Notes under the pieces: model-generated
Database searches by the model: none
Told to the model about the DNA's origin: nothing
What the model saw: only the letters and a program-made list of their open reading frames with translations
Virus record (IMG/VR): IMGVR_UViG_2547132277_000002
Direction: 5' to 3' (one strand)
Origin: a virus
Lineage: Duplodnaviria > Heunggongvirae > Uroviricota > Caudoviricetes
Length of the DNA stretch: 21,851 nucleotides
Translations under genes and position numbers: made by a program
Shown: piece by piece, positions 1,126 through 21,309 of the stretch
Layout: the number at the start of each line of letters is the position of its first letter
Position numbering within the stretch: position 1 is the first letter of the stretch

Positions 1126-1560
1126 ATCTTTTATCCACCAGCGAATCGCCTCGCATGCACCCTTACGATCACCGGCATTCAGCCGCTTATAAAACGTCGA
1201 CGGGAAACACTTACCGGGGCCAATGTTATAGGGACAAAATGACGCTATACCCGCTTTCTGGGGTTCGCTCAATGGCACTTTGATGTTTTTCTCCACCCAT
1301 GCCAGCGCCTTATCACGCTCAATGGCGTTAACCTGGTCGCATTCTTCCTTCGACAGCTTCATTCCCGGTATGACGGGCTTACCATCCACCATTGTGGCAC
1401 CACGACAGATGGTCCATATACCGGAACCATCGCGGTATGCCGTAGTGTGGTTACCCTCTTTTTCATCCAGAAACTGGTCAAGTATTTGAGGAGCAGACGC
1501 GCCTGCAGCAATCAGCGCCAGAACAGCAGCTGACAGGCCGTATTTGATTTTTGCGCTCAT
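1111..1560 (-). pseudogene. Phage SAR-type endolysin (T4-lysozyme-like, GH24), 3-prime end truncated by the IS21-family insertion
   Basis: 149-aa ORF with N-terminal signal-anchor-release stretch YGLSAAVLALIAAGASAP and catalytic E-x8-D-x5-T spacing (E in KEG, D in RDG, T in IWT). Homology to lambdoid prophage lysozymes (RrrD-like, ~165 aa, recalled) ends after ...EAIRWWIKD; the last codons CQRQ-stop read into IS sequence. Confidence 0.7.
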
Positions 1561-1615
1561 GGATATTTATCAGGATGCTACCAATGAAAGATACTGGAAA
1601 GCCAACTGCAAAAAG

Positions 1616-1930
1616 CTAACAACCCGTAATCGAGTTATCAGAACTGTTAATTTTTATGGTATACCGCGCCTCTGAACAGGGGCGCGTTTCTGGCAACAGC
1701 TCGTCCCCTTCACATAACCCGGCAGCAACATCCAGGAAGACCTGTCTGATGCTCCTTCTGGCTGCTGCCTCATAAAACTCCAGCGCTGCACCTTCAACAC
1801 GGTCCAGCGAGATGTCCAGGTCAAAAATTTCACCGTCAAAGCGTTTTTTGTCCCGTAACGCTAAAGTTACCGTAACTTTATTCTCAAAATTGCGGATCCC
1901 TTTCACAATCAGTTCATAGTTTTGAGTCAT
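1616..1930 (-). CDS. Small phage protein between holin and lysozyme (YdfR-like, DUF1327-like by recollection)
   Basis: 104-aa ORF in the conserved holin / small ORF / lysozyme arrangement of Qin-type lysis cassettes; no recognisable catalytic motif. Confidence 0.5.
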   Translation of the reverse strand: MTQNYELIVKGIRNFENKVTVTLALRDKKRFDGEIFDLDISLDRVEGAALEFYEAAARRSIRQVFLDVAAGLCEGDELLPETRPCSEARYTIKINSSDNSITGC

Positions 1931-1934
1931 TGAA

Positions 1935-2150
1935 TTACTCTCCCCGTGCAGCCTTACGCTTGTCTTCTCTGATTTTGAAGTACAGATTTGTCAGATAAGT
2001 CAGGAAGCCCAGAACCAGACTCCCCAGTACACCAATCGCAGCCCACTGTGACGGACTGACCTGATCAAGCCACTGTAAAAACCAGTAGCCAGCACTGCCT
2101 GCGGAGGTGCCATAGGCAATGCCCGTTGAAATTTTGTCCATGGATTTCAT
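1935..2150 (-). CDS. Holin, lambdoid S-like class II (EssD family)
   Basis: 71-aa ORF with two hydrophobic helices ([19 protein letters not shown]; [23 protein letters not shown]) and a charged C-terminus [13 protein letters not shown]; near-identical to DLP12 EssD as recalled. Confidence 0.8.
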
Positions 2151-2207
2151 AGCCTCACCTCCGCAAATAACGGATGGCGTAGTTTTACACTGAGAAATGA
2201 AAGGGAT

Positions 2208-2236
2208 TTGAAAAGAAAAGCCCGCAAAAGCGGGCG
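2208..2236 (-). terminator. Rho-independent terminator between tRNA array and holin (candidate tR-prime, the target of Q antitermination)
   Basis: Plus-strand GCCCGC-AAAA-GCGGGC hairpin at 2220-2235; on the minus strand it is followed by TTTTCTTTTC. Confidence 0.5.
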
Positions 2237-2310
2237 AAACAATATATACAGTAAGGAAAGCACTCTATCCAACAAACCACCCACAGTTAATCGGAATAAA
2301 AGCAGAGTGC

Positions 2311-2383
2311 TTATGAATGATCGCCTGCCCGAAGGTTAGTATTTCTGCACAGCAATTTTGCAAAAAAAGGCGATCATTCATAA
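2311..2383. repeat. Perfect 15-bp inverted repeat (TTATGAATGATCGCC / GGCGATCATTCATAA) with 43-nt spacer
   Basis: Arms at 2311-2325 and 2369-2383 are exact reverse complements; located between tRNA-Gly and the putative tR-prime. Confidence 0.6.
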
Positions 2384-2442
2384 CTTAAACGTCCTTCAGT
2401 CACTCCGGGATTTCCCATCATCGCAGACTGAAAGACTCTGAC

Positions 2443-2517
<75 letters not shown>

Positions 2518-2520
2518 ATA

Positions 2521-2596
<76 letters not shown>

Positions 2597-2598
2597 AC

Positions 2599-2675
2599 TG
2601 GACCGCCACCGGGGACTCGAACCTCGCACACTCAACTTAAAGAGTTGACGCTCTTTCCTGATGAGCTAGTGGCGG
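2599..2675 (-). tRNA. tRNA of uncertain identity (manual fold gives anticodon UUU, Lys-like, with atypical C at position 33)
   Basis: 77 nt, CCA encoded; acceptor CCGCCAC/GTGGCGG (C1-G72), D-arm GCTC-ATCAGGAAA-GAGC, anticodon stem TCAAC/GTTGA, loop UCUUUAA, T-loop TTCGAGT. Needs tRNAscan-SE. Confidence 0.5.
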
Positions 2676-2676
2676 T

Positions 2677-2752
2677 TGGTGGCCCTTGCTGGATTTGAAC
2701 CAGCGACCTGGCGATTATGAGTCGCTCGCTCTCACCACTGAGCTAAAGGGCC
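2677..2752 (-). tRNA. tRNA with CAU anticodon, ileX/ileZ-like (tRNA-Ile2; elongator Met not excluded)
   Basis: 76 nt, CCA encoded; GGCCCTTTAGCTCAGTGGTGAGAGC...CTCATAA...GGTTCAAATCC...AAGGGCCACCA closely resembles E. coli tRNA-Ile2 as recalled; anticodon loop CUCAUAA. Confidence 0.7.
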
Positions 2753-2761
2753 GGGCGCAGG

Positions 2762-2790
2762 ATAATAACGTTACGAAATCAATGTTGCAA
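2762..2790 (-). promoter_or_regulatory. Sigma70-like promoter driving the tRNA array / late operon (candidate PR-prime)
   Basis: Minus-strand -35 TTGCAA (plus 2785-2790), 17-bp spacer, -10 TATTAT (plus 2762-2767); predicted start just upstream of the first tRNA (5-prime end at 2752). Confidence 0.45.
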
Positions 2791-2871
2791 GCATTCAAAA
2801 ATCACTTGGTTAAAAATCACCCTTATCTCCTCCACCAGCGCATTCACCATGTCTATCCGAGATAAGTGACA

Positions 2872-2894
2872 CAAAAAAACCCGCTTGATGCGGG
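2872..2894 (-). terminator. Hairpin terminator separating the cargo operon from the tRNA/late promoter
   Basis: CCCGC-TTGAT-GCGGG stem-loop at 2880-2894 preceded by an A7 run on plus (T7 after the stem on minus); only TTT follows on the plus strand. Confidence 0.5.
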
Positions 2895-2942
2895 TTTAAG
2901 TTGTGTGGCGAAGCGACCACTCTTAACAGATTAAGATAGTTT

Positions 2943-2972
2943 TTGCGTACGCGTTAGTGATTTTTTCATAAT
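2943..2972 (+). promoter_or_regulatory. Candidate sigma70 promoter for the plus-strand three-gene cargo operon
   Basis: -35 TTGCGT at 2943-2948, 18-bp spacer, -10 CATAAT at 2967-2972, ~45 bp upstream of the probable start codon. Confidence 0.4.
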
Positions 2973-2984
2973 TATCTGTATCCT

Positions 2985-3896
2985 GTGGCTATTTCTCTTG
3001 CGCAAAGGATGCTTTTGATGACGCAGCAACTCGAAAACATGCCAATAACAGAAATCGAAATTGCCTACGGTGGAGAGGCATACGCAGATAATCAGATCGA
3101 CGCGAAAACATTAGGCGAAGCCTTAACCTCTCTTAGTGCCCTGATTGAACACGCCGAAAAAATAATTAATGGCGAAACAGCAGAGCCGAAAGTCAACATC
3201 AAGGCAACAAAAGAAGGTTCATTTACTTTGCTTGTTGCTGTGATGGGGAGCATAAAAACTATTAACGCCCTTGGCCTCGTTGCAGGTGGTGGAGTTGCCG
3301 CAGGTGGCGTACTCGGGATAATCGAATGGCTCAAAGGGCGTAAAATCAGCTCCATTGTCGTCGATGAACAAAAAGATACAGCAGAAATCGAAGTGGATGG
3401 TGAGAAGGTTAAATGCAGTAACGACATTCAAAAATTAATAACCAGTCCAATCATCCGAAAAGAACTGGATAAATTAATCTATAAACCCCTGCAGACTGAA
3501 AAACCATCCACGTTCTCAGTTTCACAGCAGAAGCATAAGGTAGTCAGGGTGACGCAAGCTGAAGCAGTAAGTTTTAAAACTGCAAAATCCACCTTTGTCG
3601 AGAAAACGCACGTAACGACACGCCAAGCTAATGTACATTTTGCTAATGTTCGATTCAAGCAAGGCAAAAGCTGGGATATCATCCTGCCAAATGGCGAAGA
3701 AGTTAGCGCATCTATGAAAGATGAGGCTTTTCTTGAACGGGTTGAACACAACCAAGCAGCATTCTGTAAGGGTGATCTTTTTGTTGTAGAACTGACAGAA
3801 ACAACAAAAGAAACAAATGGCGCGCTGTCTAAACCACGCTATAGTATTACTAAGGTTATACGCCACAGAGCGGCGGCAGATAGGAAACTACTTTAA
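2985..3896 (+). CDS. Cargo gene A: unknown protein with a central Gly-rich hydrophobic segment (probable start ATG 3018, 292 aa)
   Basis: ORF-track start 2985 is GTG; ATG at 3018 has AAGGA 8 nt upstream. Hydrophobic stretch FTLLVAVMGSIKTINALGLVAGGGVAAGGVLGIIEWL; no motif I can assign. Opposite strand to every flanking phage gene. Confidence 0.6.
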   Translation: MAISLAQRMLLMTQQLENMPITEIEIAYGGEAYADNQIDAKTLGEALTSLSALIEHAEKIINGETAEPKVNIKATKEGSFTLLVAVMGSIKTINALGLVAGGGVAAGGVLGIIEWLKGRKISSIVVDEQKDTAEIEVDGEKVKCSNDIQKLITSPIIRKELDKLIYKPLQTEKPSTFSVSQQKHKVVRVTQAEAVSFKTAKSTFVEKTHVTTRQANVHFANVRFKQGKSWDIILPNGEEVSASMKDEAFLERVEHNQAAFCKGDLFVVELTETTKETNGALSKPRYSITKVIRHRAAADRKLL

Positions 3897-3899
3897 ATC

Positions 3900-4145
3900 A
3901 TGTCAATCCTAAGCATTATGCTTTACATCACTGTATTCATGGCTGTCGCAGCGACGGTCAGATATGCTGTGCTTAGGTTCTTGGTTTGGGTAAAGCCGAA
4001 TGCGTATATTGAACTAACCTACACCGATCCTGAAGGCAGAACCGCTAAAAGGAAAGTCAGCGTTAGAAACGAAAATGACGCAGAAGAGTTGGCGCTACTG
4101 CTACGCGAACTCAAAACTCGCAACGAAGCAAGTGCAGGAAGGTGA
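3900..4145 (+). CDS. Cargo gene B: small protein with N-terminal transmembrane helix and charged C-terminus
   Basis: 81 aa; ILSIMLYITVFMAVAATVRYAVLRFLVWV hydrophobic; starts 4 nt after gene A stop. Confidence 0.55.
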   Translation: MSILSIMLYITVFMAVAATVRYAVLRFLVWVKPNAYIELTYTDPEGRTAKRKVSVRNENDAEELALLLRELKTRNEASAGR

Positions 4146-4532
4146 ATGGCGAACACTAAATCCTACCTGGCAATGCAGGCATGGTTTACCACCCTTATCA
4201 CTGCGGGATTGAATTTCCTTTTTGACTGGCTTCCTCAATTAGCCTTCTTCAAATCATTGGCGCCTGGAGCTGCTGTCGGCTTATCTCATGTGGTAATTCT
4301 TCTTATCGCTTACATAGGTTTGCCTACGCTTAATGATGTAAGAATGAAAAGGGAAATAAAAACGGCCAGAAAATTCATCACGAACTGCCTGGCCAACCCT
4401 AACCTAACACCAGACCAAATTGCGCACTACAACCAATGTCTTATCGATCTAGACAATAAGCTATTAAAAAACATAAATATTCGTATTGATGCTTTATCTG
4501 ACGCCGAATCGAAAGCTCAAGCAAACGAGTAG
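4146..4532 (+). CDS. Cargo gene C: predicted membrane protein (two hydrophobic helices) with a soluble C-terminal ~70 aa
   Basis: 128 aa; TGA-ATG junction with gene B; SD GGAAGGTGA upstream; helices WFTTLITAGLNFLFDWL and AAVGLSHVVILLIAYIGL. Confidence 0.6.
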   Translation: MANTKSYLAMQAWFTTLITAGLNFLFDWLPQLAFFKSLAPGAAVGLSHVVILLIAYIGLPTLNDVRMKREIKTARKFITNCLANPNLTPDQIAHYNQCLIDLDNKLLKNINIRIDALSDAESKAQANE

Positions 4533-4545
4533 TAACAGTCATAAC

Positions 4546-4902
4546 TTATGATAGAATCAAGCATATACATCCATCAATAAAGCCTAATGCAGTTTGCAGC
4601 TCCTTTCTTATAGTTCCATCTGAGCACCTGCGTTTCTTCGCGATTGAGCGTAGAGAAACACCAATAACAAAGTGAGCTATGAGCAGCTCATATTCCTCTG
4701 GTTTATACTTTCGCAACCGAGCCACACAACCGTCTATCATGATGCCTTCATCATCATCACACTGGAGACGTGACTTTTTGCCATGTGGCAAAAGCCTCTT
4801 GAAGCCCGCTGCTATCGGTTGCCAATCGACACCGCTATTTTCTGCTGCAGCCCATGCCCCCCAGCGATCTAAAACCTCATACATATCACGCCCCATTACC
4901 AT
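4546..4902 (-). CDS. Late-gene antiterminator Q (phage 21 / DLP12 QuuD-like family)
   Basis: 118 aa; motifs VLDRWGAWAA, IAAGFK, Cys-rich segments; conserved position downstream of rusA; resembles QuuD-type Q as recalled. Confidence 0.7.
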   Translation of the reverse strand: MVMGRDMYEVLDRWGAWAAAENSGVDWQPIAAGFKRLLPHGKKSRLQCDDDEGIMIDGCVARLRKYKPEEYELLIAHFVIGVSLRSIAKKRRCSDGTIRKELQTALGFIDGCICLILS

Positions 4903-5257
4903 CGCCTCTGATTTCGCAAATCTTCACGCCCAGCCGCCCACCAGGAACGAGCTGACCGCGCACAATATTGATTTCATCAAACTGCTCGTCGTCTATAAGT
5001 AGTCCGGCATGCGTCAGCGCATCCAGTGGTGCCTTCAGGATATTGTCCAGGTCGCGGCGGCGCTTATCCGGTGGCTCTGCAATCACCTTTATCGCCAGCC
5101 TTCCGGACAGGCTTAATTTCAGCCGCTGCTGGCGAACAATAAGCGCCACAGCCCGGCGATAACGCTTTCCCTCCTCCGAGATAAAATATGTGCTGCCACG
5201 GCGTCGCCAGTAAGTGTTCACCGTCGGCGGGTAAGGTAAAACCAAATCTATGAGCAT
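4886..5257 (-). CDS. rusA: Holliday-junction resolvase RusA
   Basis: 123 aa; PYPPTVNTYW... and RRRDLDN motif typical of RusA; nin-region position upstream of Q. Confidence 0.8.
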   Translation of the reverse strand: MLIDLVLPYPPTVNTYWRRRGSTYFISEEGKRYRRAVALIVRQQRLKLSLSGRLAIKVIAEPPDKRRRDLDNILKAPLDALTHAGLLIDDEQFDEINIVRGQLVPGGRLGVKICEIRGDGNGA

Positions 5258-6694: not shown

Positions 6695-7816
6695 CTAGTG
6701 AATTTTGCCTCTAAGAGTTCGGTAAGATTGTAGTGAAACAACATCACCACTTCCTGGCAGTTCATGAACCGCAGGAAGATCATCTCCTACTAACTCATAA
6801 AAAATGTCCACTTCTATATCCATTTCATCAGCTATACGCTGTGGGTCGTATCCTAACTCTTCAAATAAAAACGATAAAGCCCGACGGAATAACTCAGGAC
6901 GCTCATGAGGGATTAGATAATCTTCTTTTTCATCAATAGCTTCCCCTTTCCGTTTCAACCCCATAAATGCAGTTCTGTACTGCTCATCAGTCAAAAGTCC
7001 TAATTGATGAGCCCTGTAAACAATGGCAGCCTTACTTACTTTCCATGTCAACTTAAATTGGCTTAGTCCCTGCCAATTTATCCTCCCCCCCACAGGTCTT
7101 GGAAAATATTTCGCCATCGACGTTCTGGGAAGCAACAGAGCAGAGGCAAAACGGTTTGCCTGGGATTCAGTTAATCTATCCCCAGTAGAAATTCCTTCAT
7201 GAAGAATCAAATGGGCAACCTCATGAGCAATATCAAAGCGTTGCCTACAAGGTGAATTTTTAGCTGTATTTCGAACAATAAAAGGCCTTCGTAGAGGAAC
7301 AGACAGTGCATCTACTTCATCCGAAACGGAGTCAAATGAAGTAACAAACGCCCCAAGTTTCTCGGCAAGGCGAGTCATATTTTCAATTGGGCCAAAGCCT
7401 AAGCCCCACTCAATACGACATTTTTCTGCCGCTCGCTCGATATCTTCTTGTGTATGGACACGAAATTCAGGAAATCGAACAGGTGACAAATTAAGGTTAT
7501 CTTCAAATACATCAATAAAACGACGATAAAACTCAGCCTTAGCGAGTGTTGATAGCTTCGTTGACATCCTTGTCGAGGCGCGTTTACGAAAATGTACAAT
7601 CTCTTCATTAACAGGAGAATGTTCCTGCCCTTCGAAAAAGGCGGGCTTCACGCGCAAAACCTCGGCTAATTTATTTATAAGCTCTGGGGATGGAGTAGCT
7701 GAACCAGACTCCAGTCGCTGTACATACTGGCGTGTTTTTTCAACCTTCTCAGCAACCTGCTCCAGAGATAGCTCGTGATACAGACGAGCAAGTCTTAAAT
7801 TAGTACCGTTAAACAC
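6695..7816 (-). CDS. Fused XRE-family HTH regulator / ImmA-IrrE (COG2856) zinc metallopeptidase
   Basis: 373 aa; N-terminal HTH LRLARLYHELSLEQVAEKVEKTRQYVQRLESG; HEXXH zinc motif in DIAHEVAHLILHEG; GTG start 11 nt after the upstream gene stop. Confidence 0.8.
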   Translation of the reverse strand: MFNGTNLRLARLYHELSLEQVAEKVEKTRQYVQRLESGSATPSPELINKLAEVLRVKPAFFEGQEHSPVNEEIVHFRKRASTRMSTKLSTLAKAEFYRRFIDVFEDNLNLSPVRFPEFRVHTQEDIERAAEKCRIEWGLGFGPIENMTRLAEKLGAFVTSFDSVSDEVDALSVPLRRPFIVRNTAKNSPCRQRFDIAHEVAHLILHEGISTGDRLTESQANRFASALLLPRTSMAKYFPRPVGGRINWQGLSQFKLTWKVSKAAIVYRAHQLGLLTDEQYRTAFMGLKRKGEAIDEKEDYLIPHERPELFRRALSFLFEELGYDPQRIADEMDIEVDIFYELVGDDLPAVHELPGSGDVVSLQSYRTLRGKIH

Positions 7817-7826
7817 ATTTCACCCA

Positions 7827-8420
7827 CTATTTGCTATTTTGTTTCTTTTCCTTCTCAGTCTTAGACGCACTGATAGGTTCTAGTTCGATAGGTACCGGTG
7901 CTGGAGGTACATCATCGACAGAGTTCAGCATAACAACACGGTCCGCACCATATGTCCAAGTTGACACGATCTCACCAAACACGTTATAGCCATTAAAAAT
8001 GACTCTACCACCCTCGCCTTCAAATTCAGGCTTTTCAACCACAAAGCGATGCATAGTTGGAGTAGTCTCCTCTGACTCAAAGAGTCGATCAGCATCATTT
8101 CTTTTGAAAAAACCGCGTTTCTTGGGGTTATCTGCGTCATCAGTAAAGAAACGAATAGGGACATTCCCAATTGAAAACGTAAGATCCATGCCAGGATTAA
8201 GTAGTCTTAACCAGTCATATGTCTTTCGTACGCACATTTGTAGCAACGCCTGCCGCTGACGCCCAAATGTACAACCACCACGAGTGTAATTATCATCATA
8301 GGGCGATGACAATAACTCATGAGTAATATCCTGTATCCTGAGCAACTCCTCAGCTATAATGGTTAAACGCACCTCTGTTAACTCAGGAAAGAACTCCCAA
8401 GGGAATGGATGGTTCTGCAT
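7827..8420 (-). CDS. Unknown protein, first gene of the two-gene cassette (197 aa from ATG 8420; ORF track extends to 8468)
   Basis: ATG at 8420 has GGAG 8 nt upstream; the longer start would overlap promoter-like TTGACA boxes. No recognisable domain. Confidence 0.55.
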   Translation of the reverse strand: MQNHPFPWEFFPELTEVRLTIIAEELLRIQDITHELLSSPYDDNYTRGGCTFGRQRQALLQMCVRKTYDWLRLLNPGMDLTFSIGNVPIRFFTDDADNPKKRGFFKRNDADRLFESEETTPTMHRFVVEKPEFEGEGGRVIFNGYNVFGEIVSTWTYGADRVVMLNSVDDVPPAPVPIELEPISASKTEKEKKQNSK

Positions 8421-8469
8421 AGACACTTCTCCGCCTAATCCGTGCAAAAAACGACTTTTGTCAACCAAG

Positions 8470-8870: not shown

Positions 8871-9917
8871 TTACCATATGGAGTTGTGAATGAACTTTAA
8901 TTCATTTTTTATTTTGTTAACAGATAAATTCACGGATGTCCTAACTCTATTCACAGTCATTGCATCTCCTGGATTTAACAACTCTAATGGTTTAGACTTA
9001 GCACTTGACATTCTGCCACTACCCAGAAAATCATCAAGAATCACAATGTGATTATTAGGATCATCTGTTGTAAAATTACTAATATTTTGTCGAATTACCT
9101 CTCTTACAGCTTCGATGTACATTTTTGTCTGTTGATTTGGTTTATTCCTTGCTCCTGCCACTGTTGACCATCCGCAATGGGTAATAACCACCATCTGAAT
9201 TTTTGGTGTATGGCCATCAGACGGCATTATCTTTCTAAATTCTGATGTTGGTTTAGTCAGAGTATCAATAAGTAATCTTAATGAATTAATCGATTGCTGA
9301 TCTGTCCTCACTGGAACTATTAAAGCATCTGTTGCATGCCAAGATAAATGCGTCGCTCCAGAGAAAAAAGGTGATGTATCAATTAACGCTTTTGTAGTAC
9401 CAGTTTCAACCATTTCTCTGGCTATTTCTTTCTTCAGAGAAAAAAGAATTGTATCAATAACAACCTGCTGAGTAGCCCCAGAAATTGTTCTGGCTTGAGC
9501 CAGAGCATTCGCCATTTGCGTAGGTAGAAGATAAAGTTGACTATCAGATTGAATAAAATAGTTATTCTTGCCCGCAAACCAAGCATTAGTTGATGATACT
9601 AGCTTTGCAGCACGCGTTGCAAATCCAAGCCCTGGAACAAAATAAGGCATTAAGAGGTCATTTGCAGTTGTGCTAGACGAAGATGCATAATTATTGTCAA
9701 AAAAATATGATAAATTTCCTTGCGGGCACGTATCCACGATTAATGCGTTATCCGCCAAATATGACAGATTAAAAGTTAAAGATGTCTTACCAATGCCTCC
9801 CCGTAAATTACATACTGTATATTTATCATATTTCGGCAAATTAAGACTTCTTACATTACCGTCAGCAACTTCGAATTGACGCTCTATCAGAGCATTAACA
9901 TTTGATTCACTAGTCAT
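8871..9917 (-). CDS. ParA/MinD-family (SIMIBI) P-loop ATPase-like protein, standalone, AT-rich
   Basis: 348 aa; deviant Walker A NLRGGIGKTS (Arg at the signature-Lys position), IVDTCPQGN (ParA DxDPQ-type motif), ALIDTSP Walker-B-like; sampled lines ~34% GC versus ~50-55% in the phage backbone. Confidence 0.65.
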   Translation of the reverse strand: MTSESNVNALIERQFEVADGNVRSLNLPKYDKYTVCNLRGGIGKTSLTFNLSYLADNALIVDTCPQGNLSYFFDNNYASSSSTTANDLLMPYFVPGLGFATRAAKLVSSTNAWFAGKNNYFIQSDSQLYLLPTQMANALAQARTISGATQQVVIDTILFSLKKEIAREMVETGTTKALIDTSPFFSGATHLSWHATDALIVPVRTDQQSINSLRLLIDTLTKPTSEFRKIMPSDGHTPKIQMVVITHCGWSTVAGARNKPNQQTKMYIEAVREVIRQNISNFTTDDPNNHIVILDDFLGSGRMSSAKSKPLELLNPGDAMTVNRVRTSVNLSVNKIKNELKFIHNSIW

Positions 9918-14654: not shown

Positions 14655-15047
14655 TTCACCCTCCTGAGGGTTGGTAATTAAGGAGTTCTCCACGGGTCAG
14701 GTGGAGTGCGTGCGCCGGACACGGGTGAGCATCCGGCACTGGCAGTTTACTGGAAGGATATATCCCTGAAAAGTCAGGACATAACGCGAAAGCGCACGGC
14801 GAAGTTATTCTGTCTGTACGGTGTCGTTAAATTTAATTCGACCGTGCGCTTCCGGTTGTGGCAATCCGCGAAATGGCGCGGCGGTAAGTATGGCGGGGTT
14901 ATTCCTTCCCCGTTGAGGACACCGGGTTGTCAGGTTGACCATACGCTTAAGTGACAACCCCGCTGCAACGCCCTCTGTTATCAATTTTCTGGTGGCGTTT
15001 AGCGGTATCAGTTTTACTCCGTGACTGCTCTGCCGCCCTTTTTAAAG

Positions 15048-15195
15048 TGAATTTTGTGATGCGGTGAATGCGGCTAAGCGCACGCGGAACAGTTAAAACC
15101 AAAAACAGTGTTATGGGTGGGTTCTCTGTATCCGGCGTTAATTGTTAACTGGTTAACGTCACCTGGAGGCACCAGGCACCGCATCACAAAATTCA
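15048..15195. repeat. Perfect 19-bp inverted repeat (TGAATTTTGTGATGCGGTG / CACCGCATCACAAAATTCA) enclosing 110 bp with nested GTTAAC palindromes
   Basis: Arms at 15048-15066 and 15177-15195 are exact reverse complements; internal CGTTAATTGTTAACTGGTTAACG at 15136-15158; right arm ends 18 bp before the next start codon. Confidence 0.6.
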
Positions 15196-15213
15196 TTGTT
15201 GAGGACGCGATAA

Positions 15214-15401
15214 TGGAAACGTTATTACCAAACGTTAATACGTCTGAAGGTTGTTTTGAAATTGGTGTCACTATCAGTAACCCAGTATTTACTGAAGATG
15301 CCATTAACAAGAGAAAACAAGAACGGGAGCTATTAAATAAAATATGCATTGTTTCAATGCTGGCTCGTTTACGTCTGATGCCAAAAGAATGTGCACAATG
15401 A
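15214..15401 (+). CDS. Small hypothetical protein (62 aa from ATG 15214)
   Basis: SD GAGGA 8 nt upstream of ATG 15214; the ORF-track start 15108 lies inside the inverted-repeat region. Confidence 0.4.
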
Positions 15402-15589
15402 ATTCAGCATTTGCGCTTGTTCTGACAGTTTATCTTGTTTCCGGAGAGTCAGTTGATATTGCAGTCAGTGTTCACAGGACAATGCAGGAATGTATGACTG
15501 CAGCAACCGAACAGAAAATTCCCGGTAACTGTTACCCGGTCGATAAAGTTATTCACCAGGATAATAACGAAATCCCGGCAGGTCTTTAA
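15398..15589 (+). CDS. Small protein with signal-peptide-like N-terminus (63 aa)
   Basis: ATGA overlap with the previous stop; MNSAFALVLTVYLVSG hydrophobic N-terminus. Confidence 0.4.
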   Translation: MNSAFALVLTVYLVSGESVDIAVSVHRTMQECMTAATEQKIPGNCYPVDKVIHQDNNEIPAGL

Positions 15590-15681
15590 AACAGTTCCGT
15601 AATAAACATCCGCTTTCATTCTTATATGCCAGCAATGGCAGGGATTTGTTCACCCTTAAATCTGTAATGAGGTAAAACAAA

Positions 15682-18153
15682 ATGAGTAAAGTCTTTATTT
15701 GCGCCGCCATTCCGGACGAACAGGCAATAAAGGAAGAAGGTGCAGTCGCTGTAGCCACTGCCATTGAAGCCGGTGATGAACGTCGCGCCCGCGCAAAATT
15801 TCACTGGCAATTCCTGGAGCATTATCCGGCTGCTCAGGACTGCGCTTATAAATTTCTTGTTTGCGAGGATAAACCCGGTATATCCCGCCCTGCCCTCGAT
15901 TCCTGGGATGCTGAATATATGCAGGAAAACCGCTGGGATGAGGAGTCTGCTTCCTTTGTCCCGGTTGAGACTGAATCAGATCCGATGAACGTCACTTTTG
16001 ACAAGCTGACCCCTGAAGTACAGAACGCTGTCATGGTTAAGTTCGACACATGTGAAAACATCACCGTTGATATGGTGATTAGCGCGCAGGAATTGTTGCA
16101 GGAAGACATGGCAACATTCGACGGACATATCGTTGAAGCGTTGATGAAAATGCCAGAAGTTAACGCCATGTATCCAGAACTTAAGTTGCATGCCATCGGG
16201 TGGGTTAAGCATAAATGTAAGCCTGGAGCTAAATGGCCCGAAATTCAGGCAGAGATGCGCATCTGGAAAAAACGTCGCGAAGGTGAACGCAAGGAAACCG
16301 GAAAATACACGTCTGCTGTTGATCTCGCCCGCGCCAGAGTCAACCGACAGCACACTGAAAACTCAGCAGAAAATATCTCCCCTGTCACTGCAGTCATTCA
16401 TCGCGAATACAAGCAGACATGGAAAACACTGGATGACGAACTGGCCTACGCTCTCTGGCCTGGTGATGTGGATGCCGGAAACATTGACGGCAGCATCCAT
16501 CGCTGGGCAAAAAATGAAGTTATCGACAACGACCGCGAAGACTGGAAGCGTATCTCGGCATCGATGCGCAAACAGCCTGATGCCCTTCGCTACGACCGCC
16601 AGACTATTTTTGGCCTTGTCCGTGGACGTCCGATCGACATTCACAAAGATCCTGTGGCACTGAACAAATACATTACTGAATACCTGACTACAAAGGGCGT
16701 GTTTGAAGATGAAGGAACAAATCAGAGCGCAACTGATACTCTCTCGTCGCCAGTACCAGAAACTGATGCAGTGGAAACGGCAATTCCGGACAACGAAAAA
16801 ACCGAATGCAAAGTGGAAGTCGAACCATCTGTAGAACGTGAGGGGCCGTTCTACTTCCTCTTCACCGACAAGGATGGCGAAAAATACGGTCGCGCAAACA
16901 AACTTTCTGGTCTGGATAAGGCGCTGGCTGCCGGGGCTACTGAAATCACGAAAGAAGAATATTTCGCCCGCAAAAACGGTACATACTCAGGTTTACAACA
17001 AAATACTGGTGCATCTGACACGACCGCACAACCAGAGCCGGTAAAAGTTACCGCTGACGAAGTAAACAAAATTATGCAGGCAGCCAATATCAGCCAGCCT
17101 GACGCCGATGAACTGCTTGCAGTATCACGTGGTGAATTTGTTGCAGGGATTAGCGATCCGAATGATCCGAAATGGGTGAAGGGGATTGAAACCCGCGATT
17201 CTGTGAACCAGAACCAGCAAGAAACGGAACAGAACGACCAGAAAGCGGAACAAAACAGCCCAAATGTGCAACGAAAAGAGCCAAAAACGAAACAATCCGA
17301 ACCAGTAGCGCAACAGGAACCGGAAAAAGTCTGCACCGTCTGCGGTCAGAGCGGTGGCGGCAACTGCCCTGATTGTGGCGCGGTGATGGGCGACGCAACA
17401 TACCAGGAAACATTCGATGACGAGAACCAAGTTGAAGTTCAGGAAGACGATTCGGAGGAAATGGAAGGCGCTGAACATCCACACAAGGAGAATGCTGGCA
17501 GCGCTCAGGACCACGCCAGCGATAATGAAACTGGCGAGGCGACAGATCTCTTAATTAAGGCGAACGGTCATCATAATCTCACATCCACCAGCAGAGCGGG
17601 GATTCATCTGATGATCGACCTTGAAACCATGGGAAAAAATCCCGATGCCCCGATTATCTCAATAGGCGCAATATTTTTCGATCCACAAACCGGAGATATG
17701 GGACCGGAATTTAGCAAGACCATCGATCTGGATACTGCTGGCGGAGTCATTGATCGTGACGTCATTAAATGGTGGCTGAAGCAATCACGTGAAGCGCAGT
17801 CTGCCATTATGACCGATGAAATCCCGTTAGATGATGCACTACTGCAATTGCGGGAATTTATCGACGAAAACTCCGGTGAATTTTTTGTTCAGGTCTGGGG
17901 AAATGGAGACAACTTCGACAACGTGATTTTACGCCGCTCATACGAACGACAGGGGATCCCCTGCCCGTGGCGCTACTGCAACGATCGCGATGTACGCACA
18001 ATCGTTGAATTAGGAAAAGCCCTGGACTTCGATGCCAGAACGGCTATTCCATTCGAAGGTGAGCGCCATAATGCACTTGATGACGCTCGTTACCAGGCAA
18101 AATACATTTCAGCTATCTGGCAAAAACTGATCCCGAGTCAGGCTGATTTTTAA
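15682..18153 (+). CDS. RecE-like large exonuclease: central C4 zinc finger and C-terminal DEDDh 3-prime to 5-prime exonuclease domain
   Basis: 823 aa; segment ELLAVSRGEFVAGISDPNDPKWVKGIETRD resembles RecE as recalled; CTVCGQSGGGNCPDCG zinc finger; C-terminal Exo I DLE (MIDLETMG), Exo II NGDNFDNVIL, Exo III HNALDDA. Confidence 0.7.
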   Translation: MSKVFICAAIPDEQAIKEEGAVAVATAIEAGDERRARAKFHWQFLEHYPAAQDCAYKFLVCEDKPGISRPALDSWDAEYMQENRWDEESASFVPVETESDPMNVTFDKLTPEVQNAVMVKFDTCENITVDMVISAQELLQEDMATFDGHIVEALMKMPEVNAMYPELKLHAIGWVKHKCKPGAKWPEIQAEMRIWKKRREGERKETGKYTSAVDLARARVNRQHTENSAENISPVTAVIHREYKQTWKTLDDELAYALWPGDVDAGNIDGSIHRWAKNEVIDNDREDWKRISASMRKQPDALRYDRQTIFGLVRGRPIDIHKDPVALNKYITEYLTTKGVFEDEGTNQSATDTLSSPVPETDAVETAIPDNEKTECKVEVEPSVEREGPFYFLFTDKDGEKYGRANKLSGLDKALAAGATEITKEEYFARKNGTYSGLQQNTGASDTTAQPEPVKVTADEVNKIMQAANISQPDADELLAVSRGEFVAGISDPNDPKWVKGIETRDSVNQNQQETEQNDQKAEQNSPNVQRKEPKTKQSEPVAQQEPEKVCTVCGQSGGGNCPDCGAVMGDATYQETFDDENQVEVQEDDSEEMEGAEHPHKENAGSAQDHASDNETGEATDLLIKANGHHNLTSTSRAGIHLMIDLETMGKNPDAPIISIGAIFFDPQTGDMGPEFSKTIDLDTAGGVIDRDVIKWWLKQSREAQSAIMTDEIPLDDALLQLREFIDENSGEFFVQVWGNGDNFDNVILRRSYERQGIPCPWRYCNDRDVRTIVELGKALDFDARTAIPFEGERHNALDDARYQAKYISAIWQKLIPSQADF

Positions 18154-18404
18154 TGTTCAACCGTCGCCAGTTGTCGTTGGTATTCTGCAACTGGCGCGTT
18201 CCGGAGTGATAGCCATGAGCGAACAATACCTGATAACGCTCGATGAGTGGAAACCAAAACGGTTCAGTCTCCCAATAACAAACACTACCCTGGTGAAATA
18301 CGGAAAACTAGGATACATCGTTCCAAGACCACAAAAAATTCGTGGGCGTTGGCTGATAGATCGCCGAGCAGTATTTGTTGGGCCTGGTGGGTAGTGACTC
18401 CAAC

Positions 18405-18908
18405 TTACTGATAGTGTTTTATGTTCAGATAATGCCCGATGACCTTGTCATGCAGCTCCACCGATTTTGAGAACGACAGTGACTTCCGTCCCAGCCTTGC
18501 CAGATGTTGTCTCAGATTCAGATTATGTCGCTCAATGCGCTGAGTGTAACGCTTGCTGATAACGTGCAGCTTTCCCTTCAGGCGTGATTCATACAGCGGC
18601 CAGCCATCCGTCATCCATACCACGACCTCAAAGGCCGACAGCAGGCTCAGAAGACGCGCCAGTGTGGCCAGAGTGCGTTCACCGAAAACGTGCGCCACAA
18701 CTGTCCTCCGTATCCTGTCATACGCGTAAAACAGCCAGCGCTGACGTGATTTAGCACCGACGTAGCCCCACTGTTCGTCCATTTCCGCGCAGACAATCAC
18801 ATCACTGCCCGGTTGTATGCGCGAGGTTACCGACTGCGGCCTGAGTTTTTTAAGTGACGTAAAACCGTGTTGAGGCCAACGCCCATAATGCGGGCAGTTG
18901 CCCGGCAT
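18405..18908 (-). CDS. insB: IS1 InsB frame (expressed as the InsAB-prime transposase by -1 frameshift)
   Basis: 167-aa ORF overlapping the insA 3-prime end in the -1 frame, as in IS1. Confidence 0.85.
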
Positions 18909-19102
18909 CCAACGCCATTCATGGCCATATCAATGATTTTCTGGTGCGTACCGGGTTGAGAAGCGGTGTAAGTGAACTGCAGTTGCCATGTTTTACGGCA
19001 GTGAGAGCAGAGATAGCGCTGATGTCCGGCGGTGCTTTTGCCGTTACGCACCACCCCGTCAGTAGCTGAACAGGAGGGACAGCTGATAGAAACAGAAGCC
19101 AC
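18827..19102 (-). CDS. insA: IS1 InsA
   Basis: 91-aa [48 protein letters not shown]..., zinc-finger/HTH protein of IS1. Confidence 0.9.
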
Positions 19103-19229
19103 TGGAGCACCTCAAAAACACCATCATACACTAAATCAGTAAGTTGGCAGCATCACCGGCCTGGTGAAACGGGAATTGCGCCGGAAATTCATACTGGCGA
19201 TGATGATGCACTGAAGGAGATTTTAACTC

Positions 19230-20348
19230 ATGTCACCGAGGCCACGAAAAAACAGCACTGACGTAGCCGGTCTTTACGAAAAGTTTGATCGCAGAACTGG
19301 CAGAGTTTACTACCAGTATAAAAATCCTGTGACTGGAAAATTTCACGGACTAGGAACAGACAAAGGTAAGGCAGAAAAAATCGCTTCCACAGCCAATCAG
19401 CGAATAGCTGCAGCAGAAGCTGAATATTTCATGCGTAAAATTGATGAAAGTCCGTCAGCAACAAAACGTCGGGGTATCAGATTAAAGGCATGGGTTGATC
19501 GATATCTGAAAATACAGGACACGCGACTGAAAAATGGAGATATTGCAGCTACAACTCACAAAGAAAAAGCTCGAATGGCTGCATACCTGGTTTCCCGTCT
19601 GGGAAACCACCCATTGAAAGAACTGGAAGTAAGAGACTTTGCATTAATACTGGATGAGTGGCTGGATAAAGACATGGTCAGCACAGCGAGAGTAAATCGC
19701 GGATTATGGGTTGATATTTATAAAGAAGCACAGCATGCAGGGGAAGTTCCTCCTGGATGGAATCCTCCGGAGGCTACCCGTAAACCGATCCCTAAAGTAA
19801 CCAGAGCCAGGCTCACCATGGAAGACTGGCAAAAAATTTACAATGCAACGCCTGAAAAACACTTTATCCGTAACGCAATGCTTCTTGCGATTGTTACTGG
19901 TCAGCGCCGTGATGACATTTGCCACATGCGTTTTTCAGATGTGTGGAACGAACACTTGCATATCACCCAGGGAAAAACCGGAATGCGTCTGGCGTTACCG
20001 CTTACACTACGCTGTGATGCCATTGGGATAACGTTAAAAGAAGTTATTGATGGGTGCCGAGACAGAATATTAAGTCCATATCTAATCCATAGTCGGCACC
20101 AGAAACAACCGAAGCCGATGAGTAAAGACAACCTGAGCGACTACTTTGCCAAAGCACGGGATCTGGCTGGGATAATTCCACCAGCAGGAAAAACTCCGCC
20201 AACATTTCATGAACAACGCTCTCTATCAGAACGGCTGTACCGTGCACAGGGTATCGATACAAAAACATTACTAGGACATAAAGTCCAGGCAACCACCGAT
20301 CGCTATAACGATACTCGAGGTCAGGAATGGGTTAAGTTGGTTATTTGA
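19230..20348 (+). CDS. int: Tyrosine-family phage integrase
   Basis: 372 aa; C-terminal catalytic region LLGHKVQATTDRYNDTRGQEW (His...Tyr) like lambda Int; preceded by xis; 3-prime end faces the potB/potC junction. Confidence 0.85.
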   Translation: MSPRPRKNSTDVAGLYEKFDRRTGRVYYQYKNPVTGKFHGLGTDKGKAEKIASTANQRIAAAEAEYFMRKIDESPSATKRRGIRLKAWVDRYLKIQDTRLKNGDIAATTHKEKARMAAYLVSRLGNHPLKELEVRDFALILDEWLDKDMVSTARVNRGLWVDIYKEAQHAGEVPPGWNPPEATRKPIPKVTRARLTMEDWQKIYNATPEKHFIRNAMLLAIVTGQRRDDICHMRFSDVWNEHLHITQGKTGMRLALPLTLRCDAIGITLKEVIDGCRDRILSPYLIHSRHQKQPKPMSKDNLSDYFAKARDLAGIIPPAGKTPPTFHEQRSLSERLYRAQGIDTKTLLGHKVQATTDRYNDTRGQEWVKLVI

Positions 20349-20518
20349 CAAACACCATATGGAATATCCGTCACCATCTCAGGAAAAAAGTGTTGTAAAA
20401 TGCGTGGCCTAGTTTTGGGGAAACGTTTTGGAGAGATTTTGGAGAAAGGAAAAAATTGAATAAATTCAAAATCCTGAAAGTGTCCCGCCTTATGAATAAG
20501 AAGGTGGAACTCGAATGA
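20349..20518 (+). other. Prophage-chromosome junction: att region plus potB 3-prime remnant (reads ...[11 protein letters not shown]-stop, overlapping potC ATG)
   Basis: In-frame segment ending at TGA 20516-20518 overlaps the potC start exactly as a native potB terminus would; direct repeat TTTTGGAGA x2 at about 20425-20444 may be Int arm-type sites. Core boundary not resolvable without the other junction. Confidence 0.4.
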
Positions 20519-21309
20519 TCGGTCGACTGCTTCGCGGCGGTTTTATGACCGCTATCTACGCGTACCTGTATATCCCAATCATTATTTTGATTGTGAACTC
20601 CTTTAACAGCTCGCGCTTTGGCATCAACTGGCAGGGTTTTACCACCAAATGGTATAGCCTGCTGATGAACAACGACAGCCTGTTACAGGCAGCGCAGCAT
20701 TCACTAACAATGGCGGTGTTTTCGGCGACGTTTGCTACGCTTATCGGTTCACTGACGGCAGTTGCGCTGTACCGTTATCGCTTTCGTGGTAAGCCGTTCG
20801 TTAGCGGAATGCTGTTTGTGGTGATGATGTCACCAGATATCGTGATGGCGATTTCGCTGCTGGTGCTGTTTATGCTGCTGGGTATTCAGCTTGGCTTCTG
20901 GTCGCTGCTGTTCTCGCATATCACCTTCTGCCTGCCATTTGTGGTGGTGACGGTGTATTCGCGCCTGAAAGGTTTTGACGTGCGAATGCTGGAAGCGGCG
21001 AAAGATCTCGGTGCCAGCGAATTTACCATTCTGCGAAAAATCATTCTGCCACTGGCAATGCCAGCGGTGGCGGCGGGCTGGGTGTTAAGCTTTACCCTGT
21101 CGATGGACGATGTGGTAGTTTCTTCGTTCGTCACCGGACCAAGTTATGAAATTCTGCCGTTAAAAATTTATTCGATGGTCAAAGTCGGCGTATCGCCGGA
21201 AGTTAACGCGCTGGCAACCATATTACTGGTGCTGTCGCTGGTGATGGTTATTGCCAGCCAGCTTATTGCTCGTGATAAAACGAAAGGTAACACAGGGGAC
21301 GTTAAATGA
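20515..21309 (+). CDS. potC: Spermidine/putrescine ABC transporter permease PotC
   Basis: 264 aa [33 protein letters not shown]... matches E. coli PotC as recalled; ABC permease signature EAAKDLGAS...ILPLAMP. Confidence 0.9.

What the first reader, a model, noticed from the sequence alone, without database searches (positions are those of the whole stretch)
15682..18153. RecE-like protein carries a DEDDh 3-prime to 5-prime exonuclease domain, and no recT-like gene follows
The central region resembles RecE (recalled), but the C-terminus shows clear Exo I (DLE), Exo II (NGDNFDNVIL) and Exo III (HNALDDA) motifs of DnaQ/RNase T-like exonucleases, unlike the lambda-Exo-like 5-prime to 3-prime nuclease of K-12 RecE. 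The gene is followed directly by xis with no annealing-protein gene, so the recombination module appears to be a domain-swapped variant.
Basis: partly seen in the sequence, partly recalled or inferred. Interest (0 to 1): 0.45.

Follow-up and report, generated by a model that had tools for sequence, protein, structure and literature searches.

The report
RecE-scaffold exonuclease with swapped DEDDh head
This prophage gene is the intact form of the E. coli K-12 pseudogene ydfE: it keeps the non-catalytic front part of the recombination nuclease RecE but carries a DnaQ/DexA-type 3'-to-5' exonuclease in place of RecE's own nuclease and its partner gene recT, and although three quarters of complete E. 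coli genomes carry this nuclease segment and databases already annotate it, I found no study of its function.

Summary
ORF 15682-18153 (+, 823 aa) has a C-terminal Rv2179c/DexA-type DEDDh domain (Pfam PF16473, E=6e-65; catalytic D646, E648, D746, H796, D801). Residues 262-625 match K-12 RecE residues 278-591, which lie in RecE's non-nuclease part. Truncated xis and int follow directly. No RecT, Bet, lambda Exo or RecE-nuclease homologue exists in any frame of the window, nor in a complete related phage.

The domain swap is shown directly. Other E. coli prophages have the same dicB-ydfD context and a 95% identical gene up to window nt 17555 (codon 625). There they switch to a PD-(D/E)XK nuclease followed by recT-lar-DUF1187-xis-int. 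Both heads occur on both scaffold types.

The gene is ordinary in the databases. It is 100% identical to RefSeq "exonuclease"/"3'-5' exonuclease" entries, is covered full-length by PHROG 2082, and carries Pfam YdfE_N and YdfE_C. The DEDDh segment is in 4066 of 5426 complete E. coli genomes, against 1750 for the RecE-nuclease+recT cassette. dN/dS is about 0.15.

The function is untested. The most likely role is an annealase-independent 3'-end DNA exonuclease of the early-left operon, not a RecET-type recombinase. Interest is modest.

The parts
15682..18153 (+). Complete CDS, 823 aa: intact form of the K-12 pseudogene ydfE, made of a RecE-type scaffold plus a DEDDh exonuclease
   Evidence: ORF listing; 100% identical to annotated 'exonuclease' CDSs; PHROG 2082 matches 1-823 of 823; K-12 Qin ydfE is 94.4% identical in DNA up to window 16448, where IS2 cuts the K-12 copy.
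15682..16716 (+). N-terminal folded region (aa 1-345, Pfam YdfE_N type) with three sub-domains: an alpha/beta part at 1-~100, a helical part at ~105-207 and a helical part at ~245-340
16465..17556 (+). Segment homologous to the non-nuclease part of K-12 RecE (aa 262-625 match RecE 278-591), most conserved over aa ~470-625
   Evidence: BLASTP E=4e-57; NCBIfam NF007259 partial match; blastn to Rac recE at 75.6% over window 17106-17555.
16843..16980 (+). Small confidently folded beta-hairpin/helix domain (aa 388-433) within an otherwise disordered middle region
   Evidence: Full-length AF2 model: pLDDT >90 for 390-430 and <50 for 346-383, 439-459, 499-549 and 567-639.
17332..17376 (+). CxxC-x7-CxxC zinc-ribbon-like motif (CTVCGQSGGGNCPDC, aa 551-565), shared with RecE (CNACGQTGGDNCPDC)
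   Evidence: Motif scan and BLASTP alignment. Metal binding is inferred, not tested.
17555..17556 (.). Mosaic junction (codon 625), where homology to both the PD-(D/E)XK-headed allele and Rac recE ends
   Evidence: blastn: window against L008 is 95.3% up to 17555, against L009 up to 17548, and against Rac recE up to 17555. The junction lies in a predicted disordered linker, aa 567-639.
17557..17604 (+). Junction linker (aa 626-641, KANGHHNLTSTSRAGI) with no detected homologue
   Evidence: Similarity to the stand-alone DEDDh genes of ST64B and mEp460_4F5 begins only at window 17609-17611, which is codons 643-644.
17605..18120 (+). DEDDh 3'-5' exonuclease domain (aa 642-813) of the Rv2179c/DexA family, with catalytic codons D646 (17617-17619), E648 (17623-17625), D746 (17917-17919), H796 (18067-18069) and D801 (18082-18084)
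   Evidence: Pfam PF16473 E=6.4e-65; alignment with T4 DexA, ST64B Sb30 and mEp460_4F5; PDB 8KEL E=4e-5; Foldseek top hits DexA, RNase T and Orn; dN/dS 0.14-0.19.
18215..18389 (+). xis, truncated after about codon 58 of 89 by IS1. It follows the exonuclease gene after a 61-nt spacer with no intervening gene
   Evidence: 100% identical to the first 175 nt of the 270-nt excisionase gene of strain 99-3165.
19230..20348 (+). int (372 aa tyrosine integrase). The prophage end abuts potC (20515-21309)
   Evidence: ORF listing and annotation of the identical region in strain 99-3165.
14987..15589 (+). Upstream genes of the same leftward early operon: dicF sRNA (14987-15038), dicB (15213-15401) and ydfD (15398-15589)
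   Evidence: Rfam DicF 68.6 bits and PGAP annotation of the identical sequence. No convincing terminator lies between ydfD and the exonuclease gene.

Best explanation
The gene is the intact version of the K-12 pseudogene ydfE. It is the last early-left gene before xis-int in a Qin/mEp460-like lambdoid prophage inserted next to potC.

Shown: the protein is a mosaic. Residues 1-625 are a non-catalytic RecE-type scaffold: three folded N-terminal sub-domains, one small middle domain, then a long acidic, disordered stretch containing a Zn-ribbon-like motif. At codon 625, inside a predicted disordered linker, the RecE-type PD-(D/E)XK 5'-3' nuclease together with the downstream recT-lar-DUF1187 genes has been replaced by a DexA/Rv2179c-type DEDDh domain. 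Stand-alone ~190-aa homologues of that domain occupy the same slot just before xis-int in other temperate phages. Both parts are under purifying selection.

Inferred: the DEDDh head removes nucleotides from free 3'-OH ends by the standard two-metal mechanism. D646, E648, D746 and D801 would bind Mg2+ and H796 would act as the general base.

Inferred: because the head replaces a DNA exonuclease on a DNA-recombination scaffold, and because stand-alone relatives sit among phage DNA replication genes and include T4 DexA, the substrate is most likely DNA.

Inferred: with the opposite polarity and no annealase, the protein is not a RecET/Red-type resection-annealing machine. It is more likely an annealase-independent 3'-end trimming or degrading enzyme made after prophage induction. 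The shared scaffold would bring it to the same, still unknown, partner or DNA structure as full-length RecE.
For: Domain identity.

Swap shown by comparison. The same 625-aa scaffold (93-94% identity at protein level, 95% at DNA level) carries a PD-(D/E)XK head followed by recT, and homology ends at nt 17555.

All four combinations exist. The 814-aa allele of phage vB_EcoS-640R1 and strain CREC-U1 has a K-12-RecE-like front (58.6% identity over RecE 50-591) joined to the same DEDDh head at RecE residue 591.

Among 51 long representatives (plus the window protein itself) carrying the scaffold, 22 have PF06630, 13 have PF12684 and 7 have PF16473.

No annealase: none in six frames of the window, none in the complete 45.9-kb phage mEp460_ev081 that carries a 93.6% identical gene, and none next to the gene with three other xis/int modules.

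Purifying selection: dN/dS is 0.14-0.19 for the DEDDh part and 0.14-0.26 for the N-terminal domain.

Stand-alone homologues lie before xis-int in ST64B and near the int end of the early operon in mEp460_4F5. In Klebsiella phage SBP one lies between SSB/helicase and DNA polymerase, and in a Vibrio phage beside an AAA protein and a helicase-like P-loop protein.

T4 DexA is an established 3'-5' DNA exonuclease (annotation; PMC12153337). The RecE N-terminal region is described as of unknown function, dispensable for basic recombination but enhancing linear-linear recombination (PMC11611040).
Against: No biochemical or genetic data exist for this protein or for any fused form; five literature searches found none (plus an empty ydfE search).

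The family's founding member, Rv2179c, is an exoribonuclease, so RNA cannot be excluded.

The scaffold has no detectable structural relative, so its targeting role is pure inference.

The AF2 model of the DEDDh part is only moderate, at pLDDT 55-80.

An annealase could act in trans from another prophage, since 32% of E. coli genomes carry recT.
Confidence: 0.6

Rival explanations
1. It is still a working recombination module. The DEDDh-headed protein would initiate homologous recombination in place of RecE, using a host function or an annealase supplied in trans by a co-resident prophage.
For: It sits in the same slot and on the same scaffold as RecE. The phage keeps a RusA resolvase in its nin region. 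Many E. coli strains carry several such prophages, and 32% carry recT.
Against: 3'-5' digestion leaves 5' tails, which are not substrates for annealing-based or RecA-based strand invasion (established knowledge of Red/RecET and RecA). A complete phage carrying the gene has no annealase. Every PD-(D/E)XK-headed allele whose neighbourhood I inspected keeps recT, whereas no DEDDh-headed allele does. That pattern argues that the annealase goes with the nuclease head, not with the scaffold.
Confidence: 0.15
2. It is an RNA-directed 3'-5' exoribonuclease, as the family name Rv2179c-like suggests. It would trim or degrade host or phage RNA 3' ends after induction.
For: Pfam and PGAP name the domain an exoribonuclease. 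Structural neighbours include RNase T and oligoribonuclease.
Against: The closest solved relative by sequence and by fold is the DNA exonuclease T4 DexA. The domain replaces a DNA nuclease on a DNA-recombination scaffold. Stand-alone relatives sit among DNA replication genes. RNase T itself also acts on DNA 3' ends, as the PDB entries listed show.
Confidence: 0.15
3. It is a prophage-encoded anti-phage nuclease of the 'HREX' type. It would degrade 5-hydroxymethylcytosine DNA of invading T-even phages, as reported for the E. coli DexA homologue EcD.
For: PMC12153337 reports that plasmid-borne EcD protects against T4 and that bacterial DexA homologues are abundant in Escherichia. The window prophage carries other defence genes, RosmerTA and PDC-S42.
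Against: By that paper's own criteria the domain does not fit. DexA W152 aligns with C766, D169 aligns with A780, and the tetramer residue D90 is retained as D718 (the alignment is only 26% identical). EcD starts MIDTET and ends TIPETYD, so it belongs to a different subfamily. The gene lies in the repressor-controlled leftward early operon behind dicB-ydfD, which is inferred to be silent in a lysogen. The PADLOC hit is only a generic DEDDh match at E=4e-4.
Confidence: 0.07
4. It is a decaying, non-functional fusion left by illegitimate recombination in a defective prophage.
For: The window prophage is itself damaged, with IS1 in xis. K-12 and O157 copies are interrupted by IS elements.
Against: Intact 814-826-aa ORFs dominate the thousands of relatives listed. 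dN/dS is about 0.15 in both halves. All five catalytic residues are kept. The gene is present in sequenced phage genomes.
Confidence: 0.03

Closest known systems
RecE (exodeoxyribonuclease VIII) of the Rac prophage, E. coli K-12, with its partner RecT
   Same: The gene sits in the same position, as the last large gene of the leftward early operon before xis-int. The non-catalytic region is homologous (aa 262-625 match RecE 278-591), including the Zn-ribbon-like CxxC..CxxC and the acidic linker. A sister allele with an almost identical scaffold carries the true RecE nuclease and recT.
   Different: The PD-(D/E)XK 5'-3' nuclease domain (RecE 606-866) is absent and replaced by a DEDDh domain of opposite polarity. 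The first ~260 residues are of the YdfE type, not the K-12 RecE type. There is no recT, lar/ralR or DUF1187 (rcbA-like) gene downstream. The score is far below the NCBIfam equivalog cutoff (266 against 1269 bits).
T4 DexA (exonuclease A; PDB 8KEL/8KEN), within the Rv2179c-like family PF16473
   Same: It has the same DEDDh fold family and the same five catalytic residues. DexA is the best sequence and fold match among solved structures. It is also phage-encoded.
   Different: Identity is only about 26%. DexA is a stand-alone 227-aa protein with extra loops. The residues reported to read 5hmC (W152, D169) are not conserved here. The window protein carries the domain at the end of a 640-aa scaffold.
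Stand-alone ~190-aa DEDDh genes of temperate phages (ST64B Sb30; mEp460_4F5)
   Same: They are 56-59% identical to aa 643-823. In ST64B the gene lies immediately upstream of xis-int, the same place as here. They are the likely donors of the head.
   Different: They are not fused to any scaffold. Their homology starts exactly at the stand-alone start codon (window 17609-17611).
K-12 ydfE (b1577), a pseudogene of the Qin prophage, and Pfam YdfE_N/YdfE_C
   Same: K-12 ydfE is 94.4% identical in DNA to the first 767 nt of the gene and shares the same dicF-dicB-ydfD upstream context.
   Different: The K-12 copy is cut by IS2E after about codon 255 and lacks everything downstream, including the nuclease head.

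Membership tests
RecE / exodeoxyribonuclease VIII (NCBIfam NF007259; Pfam PF06630 or PF12684 nuclease) | C-terminal PD-(D/E)XK (lambda-Exo-like) 5'-3' nuclease domain | tested here: not met
   There is no PF06630 or PF12684 hit. The NCBIfam match covers only profile positions 269-602 at 266 bits against a cutoff of 1269. tblastn of RecE 591-866 against the window finds nothing. The Foldseek hits listed are DEDDh-type exonucleases.
RecE / exodeoxyribonuclease VIII | Homology to the RecE N-terminal/central non-catalytic region | tested here: met
   BLASTP aligns aa 262-625 with RecE 278-591 at E=4e-57. The first ~260 aa are not RecE-like in this allele, but they are in the 814-aa allele.
Two-component exonuclease-annealase recombinases (RecET, Red alpha/beta; 'SynExo') | An adjacent single-strand annealing protein gene (RecT/Bet/Erf type) | tested here: not met
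   Truncated xis follows after 61 nt. There is no RecT or Bet similarity in six frames of the window or of the whole phage mEp460_ev081. Pfam on the unnamed ORFs finds no annealase family. Erf, Sak and Sak4 queries were not run.
Two-component exonuclease-annealase recombinases | 5'-3' resection of dsDNA ends that leaves 3' tails | not testable with these tools
   The polarity of DEDDh enzymes is 3'-5' by family knowledge.
DEDDh (DnaQ-like) 3'-5' exonucleases, Rv2179c/DexA family PF16473 | Profile match above the curated threshold over the whole domain | tested here: met
   PF16473 scores 218.6 bits against a cutoff of 27 and covers profile positions 2-177 of 177.
DEDDh (DnaQ-like) 3'-5' exonucleases | The five catalytic residues D, E, D, H, D in motifs Exo I, II and III | tested here: met
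   D646, E648, D746, H796 and D801 are invariant in the alignment with T4 DexA (D7, E9, D119, H186, D191) and two phage homologues.
DEDDh (DnaQ-like) 3'-5' exonucleases | RNase-H-like DnaQ fold | tested here: met
   Foldseek top hits are DexA 8KEL (E=1e-6), RNase T, Orn and Cap18. The model is of moderate confidence in this domain, at pLDDT 55-80.
DEDDh (DnaQ-like) 3'-5' exonucleases | Mg2+-dependent 3'-5' exonuclease activity, and whether the substrate is DNA or RNA | not testable with these tools
   This needs purified protein.
HREX / EcD-type anti-phage DexA homologues (PMC12153337) | Conserved Trp and acidic residue equivalent to DexA W152 and D169, with loss of the tetramer residue D90 | tested here: not met
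   W152 aligns with C766, D169 aligns with A780, and D90 aligns with D718, which is retained. The caveat is a 26% identical alignment with a nearby W763. EcD itself is a different subfamily, judged from its primer-derived termini.
YdfE family (Pfam PF27430 YdfE_N + PF27432 YdfE_C) | Sequence membership in both Pfam families | tested here: inconclusive
   The two models are absent from the local Pfam copy, so the window protein was not scored directly. They are precomputed for relatives 90-98% identical over aa 1-640. K-12 ydfE is 94.4% identical in DNA to the 5' end of the gene.

The most novel reading that the evidence does not exclude
The RecE/YdfE N-terminal scaffold may be a general targeting platform onto which lambdoid phages plug alternative nuclease heads. 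The DEDDh-headed form is far commoner in E. coli than RecET itself and is always annealase-free. It may therefore carry out a distinct, undescribed job, such as destroying 3' ends of competitor or host DNA, countering a host defence that depends on 3'-OH nucleic-acid ends, or steering end processing toward a non-annealing repair route. It would not be a variant recombinase. Working out what the scaffold binds would also explain the long-unexplained N-terminal 600 residues of RecE.
Probability: 0.25. Interest if true: 0.6.

Novelty: already known. Interest (0 to 1): 0.3.

Why it matters
As an observation it changes little. The protein and its 3'-5' exonuclease domain are already in RefSeq, PHROGs and Pfam.

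Three comparative results may interest phage biologists.
- The swap point is exact and lies in a disordered linker.
- recT and two small downstream genes (one in L009) travel with the PD-(D/E)XK head, not with the scaffold.
- The DEDDh head is more than twice as prevalent across E. coli genomes as the textbook RecE/RecT cassette (75% against 32%) and has more than four times as many copies (8103 against 1841 places).

These results mean that 'exodeoxyribonuclease VIII' labels on such genes, still present in phage records, should not be read as evidence of a RecET recombination system. This matters when counting phage recombinases or mining recombineering tools. The two alleles also form a natural head-swap pair for testing what the uncharacterised RecE N-terminal region does.

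Tried and rejected

2. I tested the HREX/EcD anti-T4 idea and rejected it as the main explanation.

3. PADLOC gave only a generic DEDDh (Cas-associated) match at E=4e-4, which I did not treat as evidence of defence.

4. Literature searches for Rv2179c+phage, ydfE+prophage+exonuclease, full-length RecE, exodeoxyribonuclease VIII+dicB and DnaQ-like+RecE found no study of this fusion. The Gifsy-1/RtcR paper looked promising but concerns other genes.

5. A lambda Gam 37-aa tblastn match (E=7e-4) lies antisense in the DUF968 gene, recurs in mEp460_ev081, and is judged spurious.

6. I fetched the wrong part of P22 for erf, so Erf, Sak and Sak4 annealases were checked only indirectly, through Pfam/PADLOC on six of the window ORFs lacking a specific PGAP product name and the PGAP product names for the rest.

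7. I could not obtain the EcD protein sequence, only its primer-derived ends.
Full report
**What is there**

The window is the early and lysis half of a Qin/mEp460-like lambdoid prophage inserted next to potC. The identical sequence in E. coli strain 99-3165 is annotated in this order: repressor pair, ydfA-ydfB-ydfC, dicB, ydfD, 'exonuclease', excisionase, integrase, potC. Rfam finds DicF at 14987-15038.

The finding's ORF runs 15682-18153 on the + strand and encodes 823 aa. It has a good Shine-Dalgarno sequence, and no convincing terminator separates it from ydfD.

**Checking the observation**

Pfam places an Rv2179c-like DEDDh domain at aa 642-813, with E=6.4e-65. An alignment with T4 DexA and two stand-alone phage homologues shows the five catalytic residues as invariant: D646, E648, D746, H796 and D801. 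DexA (8KEL) is the closest solved protein by sequence and by fold. RNase T and oligoribonuclease follow, and no PD-(D/E)XK protein appears.

The RecE resemblance is also real but partial. Residues 262-625 align with K-12 RecE 278-591. Identity is about 80% in the last 150 residues, which include a CxxC..CxxC motif. The NCBIfam RecE equivalog matches only its positions 269-602 and scores 266 bits against a cutoff of 1269. RecE's nuclease domain lies C-terminal to this; a review gives it as 564-866 and calls the N-terminal part 'of unknown function' (PMC11611040).

The next gene is xis, 61 nt downstream, followed by int. Six-frame tblastn with three RecT types, Bet, lambda Exo, Gam and the RecE nuclease domain gives only noise. 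Pfam and PADLOC scans of the window's unnamed ORFs show no annealase.

**The swap, shown by comparison**

A database search with aa 1-640 returned mostly 823-826-aa proteins carrying YdfE_N + YdfE_C + PF16473. It also returned 900-aa and 1057-aa proteins that share the same 625 residues at 93-94% identity but end in PF12684, a PD-(D/E)XK domain. Their contigs read dicB, ydfD, [scaffold + PD-(D/E)XK], RecT, Lar (in L008 only), DUF1187, Exc, Int.

At the DNA level the window and L008 are 95.3% identical from 15002 to 17555 and unrelated after that. Homology to Rac recE ends at the same base. Similarity to the stand-alone DEDDh genes of ST64B and mEp460_4F5 starts at 17609-17611, which corresponds to the first codons after their start codons. 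That leaves a 16-residue junction linker with no relative. In the full-length AF2 model the junction falls in a disordered stretch, aa 567-639.

The exchangeable unit is therefore [PD-(D/E)XK head + recT + small downstream genes (lar and DUF1187 in L008; DUF1187 only in L009)] against [DEDDh head alone].

A second scaffold type also carries the DEDDh head. The 814-aa allele of phage vB_EcoS-640R1 and strain CREC-U1 is 58.6% identical to K-12 RecE over residues 50-591 and then switches to the same DEDDh domain. All four scaffold-head combinations therefore exist.

The scaffold family is small, with 242 clusters at 50% identity among 1.84 billion proteins. Of 51 long members scanned (the window protein plus 50 cluster representatives), 22 carry PF06630, 13 carry PF12684 and 7 carry PF16473. 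The scaffold is itself built of shuffled sub-modules.

**How common and how conserved**

The whole gene finds matches covering at least 80% of its length in 3532 of 5426 complete E. coli genomes. The post-junction DEDDh segment is present in 4066 genomes at 8103 places, with up to 7 per genome. The RecE-nuclease+recT cassette is in 1750 genomes at 1841 places.

With three other integration modules the gene is again followed directly by an excisionase-type gene and int. These are the rspB/ynfA site in REL606, an O157:H7 copy, and a tRNA-Ser site. The complete 45.9-kb phage mEp460_ev081 has a 93.6% identical copy in the same order and no RecT or Bet homologue anywhere.

Pairwise dN/dS is 0.14-0.19 for the DEDDh part, 0.14-0.26 for the N-terminal domain and 0.33-0.48 for the linker-rich middle. 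This argues that the fusion is a functional gene and not debris. K-12's pseudogene ydfE is the first ~255 codons of this gene, cut by IS2E.

**Anatomy of the scaffold**

AF2 on a 15-sequence alignment gives confident sub-domains at 1-~100 (alpha/beta), ~105-207 (helical) and ~245-340 (helical), with pLDDT 85.9 but pTM 0.36, so their mutual arrangement is undefined. The full-length model adds a small confident domain at 388-433. It predicts disorder for most of 434-640 apart from short helices and the Zn-ribbon-like motif.

**Most likely mechanism**

The following points are shown:
- the domain identities;
- the intact catalytic pentad;
- the cassette exchange;
- the absence of an annealase;
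- purifying selection;
- the position at the end of the leftward early operon.

The rest is inferred. The head would be a two-metal 3'-5' exonuclease. DNA is the likelier substrate for three reasons. The closest characterised relative is the DNA exonuclease DexA. The head replaces a DNA nuclease on a recombination scaffold. Stand-alone relatives sit among phage DNA-metabolism genes, for example between SSB/helicase and DNA polymerase in Klebsiella phage SBP.

A 3'-5' enzyme without an annealase cannot run the resection-annealing chemistry of RecET or Red. I therefore read it as an annealase-independent 3'-end trimming or degrading enzyme made on induction, delivered by the same scaffold as RecE. 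My confidence in the identity and history is about 0.9, and in this functional reading about 0.5.

**Rivals**

- A still-recombinational role with an annealase acting in trans is possible but disfavoured. The polarity is wrong, and the annealase always travels with the PD-(D/E)XK head.
- An RNA substrate cannot be excluded, given the family name and the RNase T and Orn structural neighbours.
- The recently proposed HREX anti-T4 role of an E. coli DexA homologue (PMC12153337) does not transfer well. The proposed 5hmC-reading residues are not conserved, EcD belongs to another subfamily, and the gene lies in a repressor-controlled operon.
- Decay is contradicted by the selection analysis and by the ORF staying intact.

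**Comparison with the known, and novelty**

The protein works like a DexA/DnaQ-type exonuclease and is a member of PF16473. It is not a member of the RecE equivalog family, because it fails the nuclease-domain and recT criteria, although it shares RecE's scaffold.

The identical protein is already in RefSeq as 'exonuclease' or '3'-5' exonuclease'. PHROG 2082 covers it end to end, and newer Pfam releases have families for all three parts. I found no paper on its function or on the head swap. I therefore rate it 'already known' as a feature, functionally uncharacterised, and of modest interest.

The practical lesson is that 'exodeoxyribonuclease VIII' labels on such genes, as in phage records H16 and H17, do not indicate a RecET system.

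Noticed in passing
window 18390-19157 (IS1), with target duplications at 18381-18389 and 19158-19166: A 768-bp IS1 with a 9-bp target-site duplication (GGCCTGGTG) is inserted in xis after about codon 58 of 89, separating xis from int. The prophage is probably excision-defective. In strain 99-3165, where the exonuclease gene and the xis-int flanks compared are 100% identical to the window, xis is intact and the IS1 sits after ydfC instead.
   Followed up: yes
window 6695-8468 (-): A RosmerTA-type defence pair by PADLOC. RmrT is at 7827-8468 (E=7e-92). RmrA is at 6695-7816 (E=4e-201) and has an HTH plus an M78/IrrE-like peptidase domain. The pair lies between the replication genes and the nin/Q region.
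   Followed up: partly
window 2985-4532 (+): A 303-aa protein matches the PADLOC candidate defence family PDC-S42 (E=3e-53). Two small hydrophobic ORFs follow it (3900-4145 and 4146-4532). The group is inserted between the tRNA cluster and the Q antiterminator on the opposite strand.
   Followed up: no
window 2446-2752 (-): Four tRNA genes lie upstream of the lysis cassette. In the matching sequence of strain 99-3165 they are annotated Gly, Thr, Lys and Ile.
   Followed up: partly
window 8871-9917 (-): An orphan ParA-family ATPase (348 aa) with no parB sits beside a hok/gef remnant in the immunity/replication region. An orphan ParA-like gene of Gifsy-1 (STM14_3218) lies in a three-gene region required for RtcR activation in Salmonella (PMC9879122). 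I did not test whether the two are homologous.
   Followed up: no
window 14987-15589 (+): A DicF sRNA (Rfam 68.6 bits), dicB and ydfD lie immediately upstream. They are 94-96% identical in DNA to K-12 Qin, so this prophage is an intact-left-arm relative of Qin.
   Followed up: yes
L013 (E. coli O157:H7 E32511), locus 1314-5098: In this O157:H7 strain the same exonuclease gene is split by an IS1203 insertion. K-12's copy is cut by IS2E. IS insertions have therefore hit this large gene independently in at least two lineages, even though the intact copies show purifying selection.
   Followed up: partly
L009 10186-11238: The 1057-aa PD-(D/E)XK-headed allele has a longer (~430 aa) nuclease head and is paired with a 350-aa RecT, unlike the 269-aa K-12 type. 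Head and annealase therefore seem to co-vary as matched pairs.
   Followed up: no
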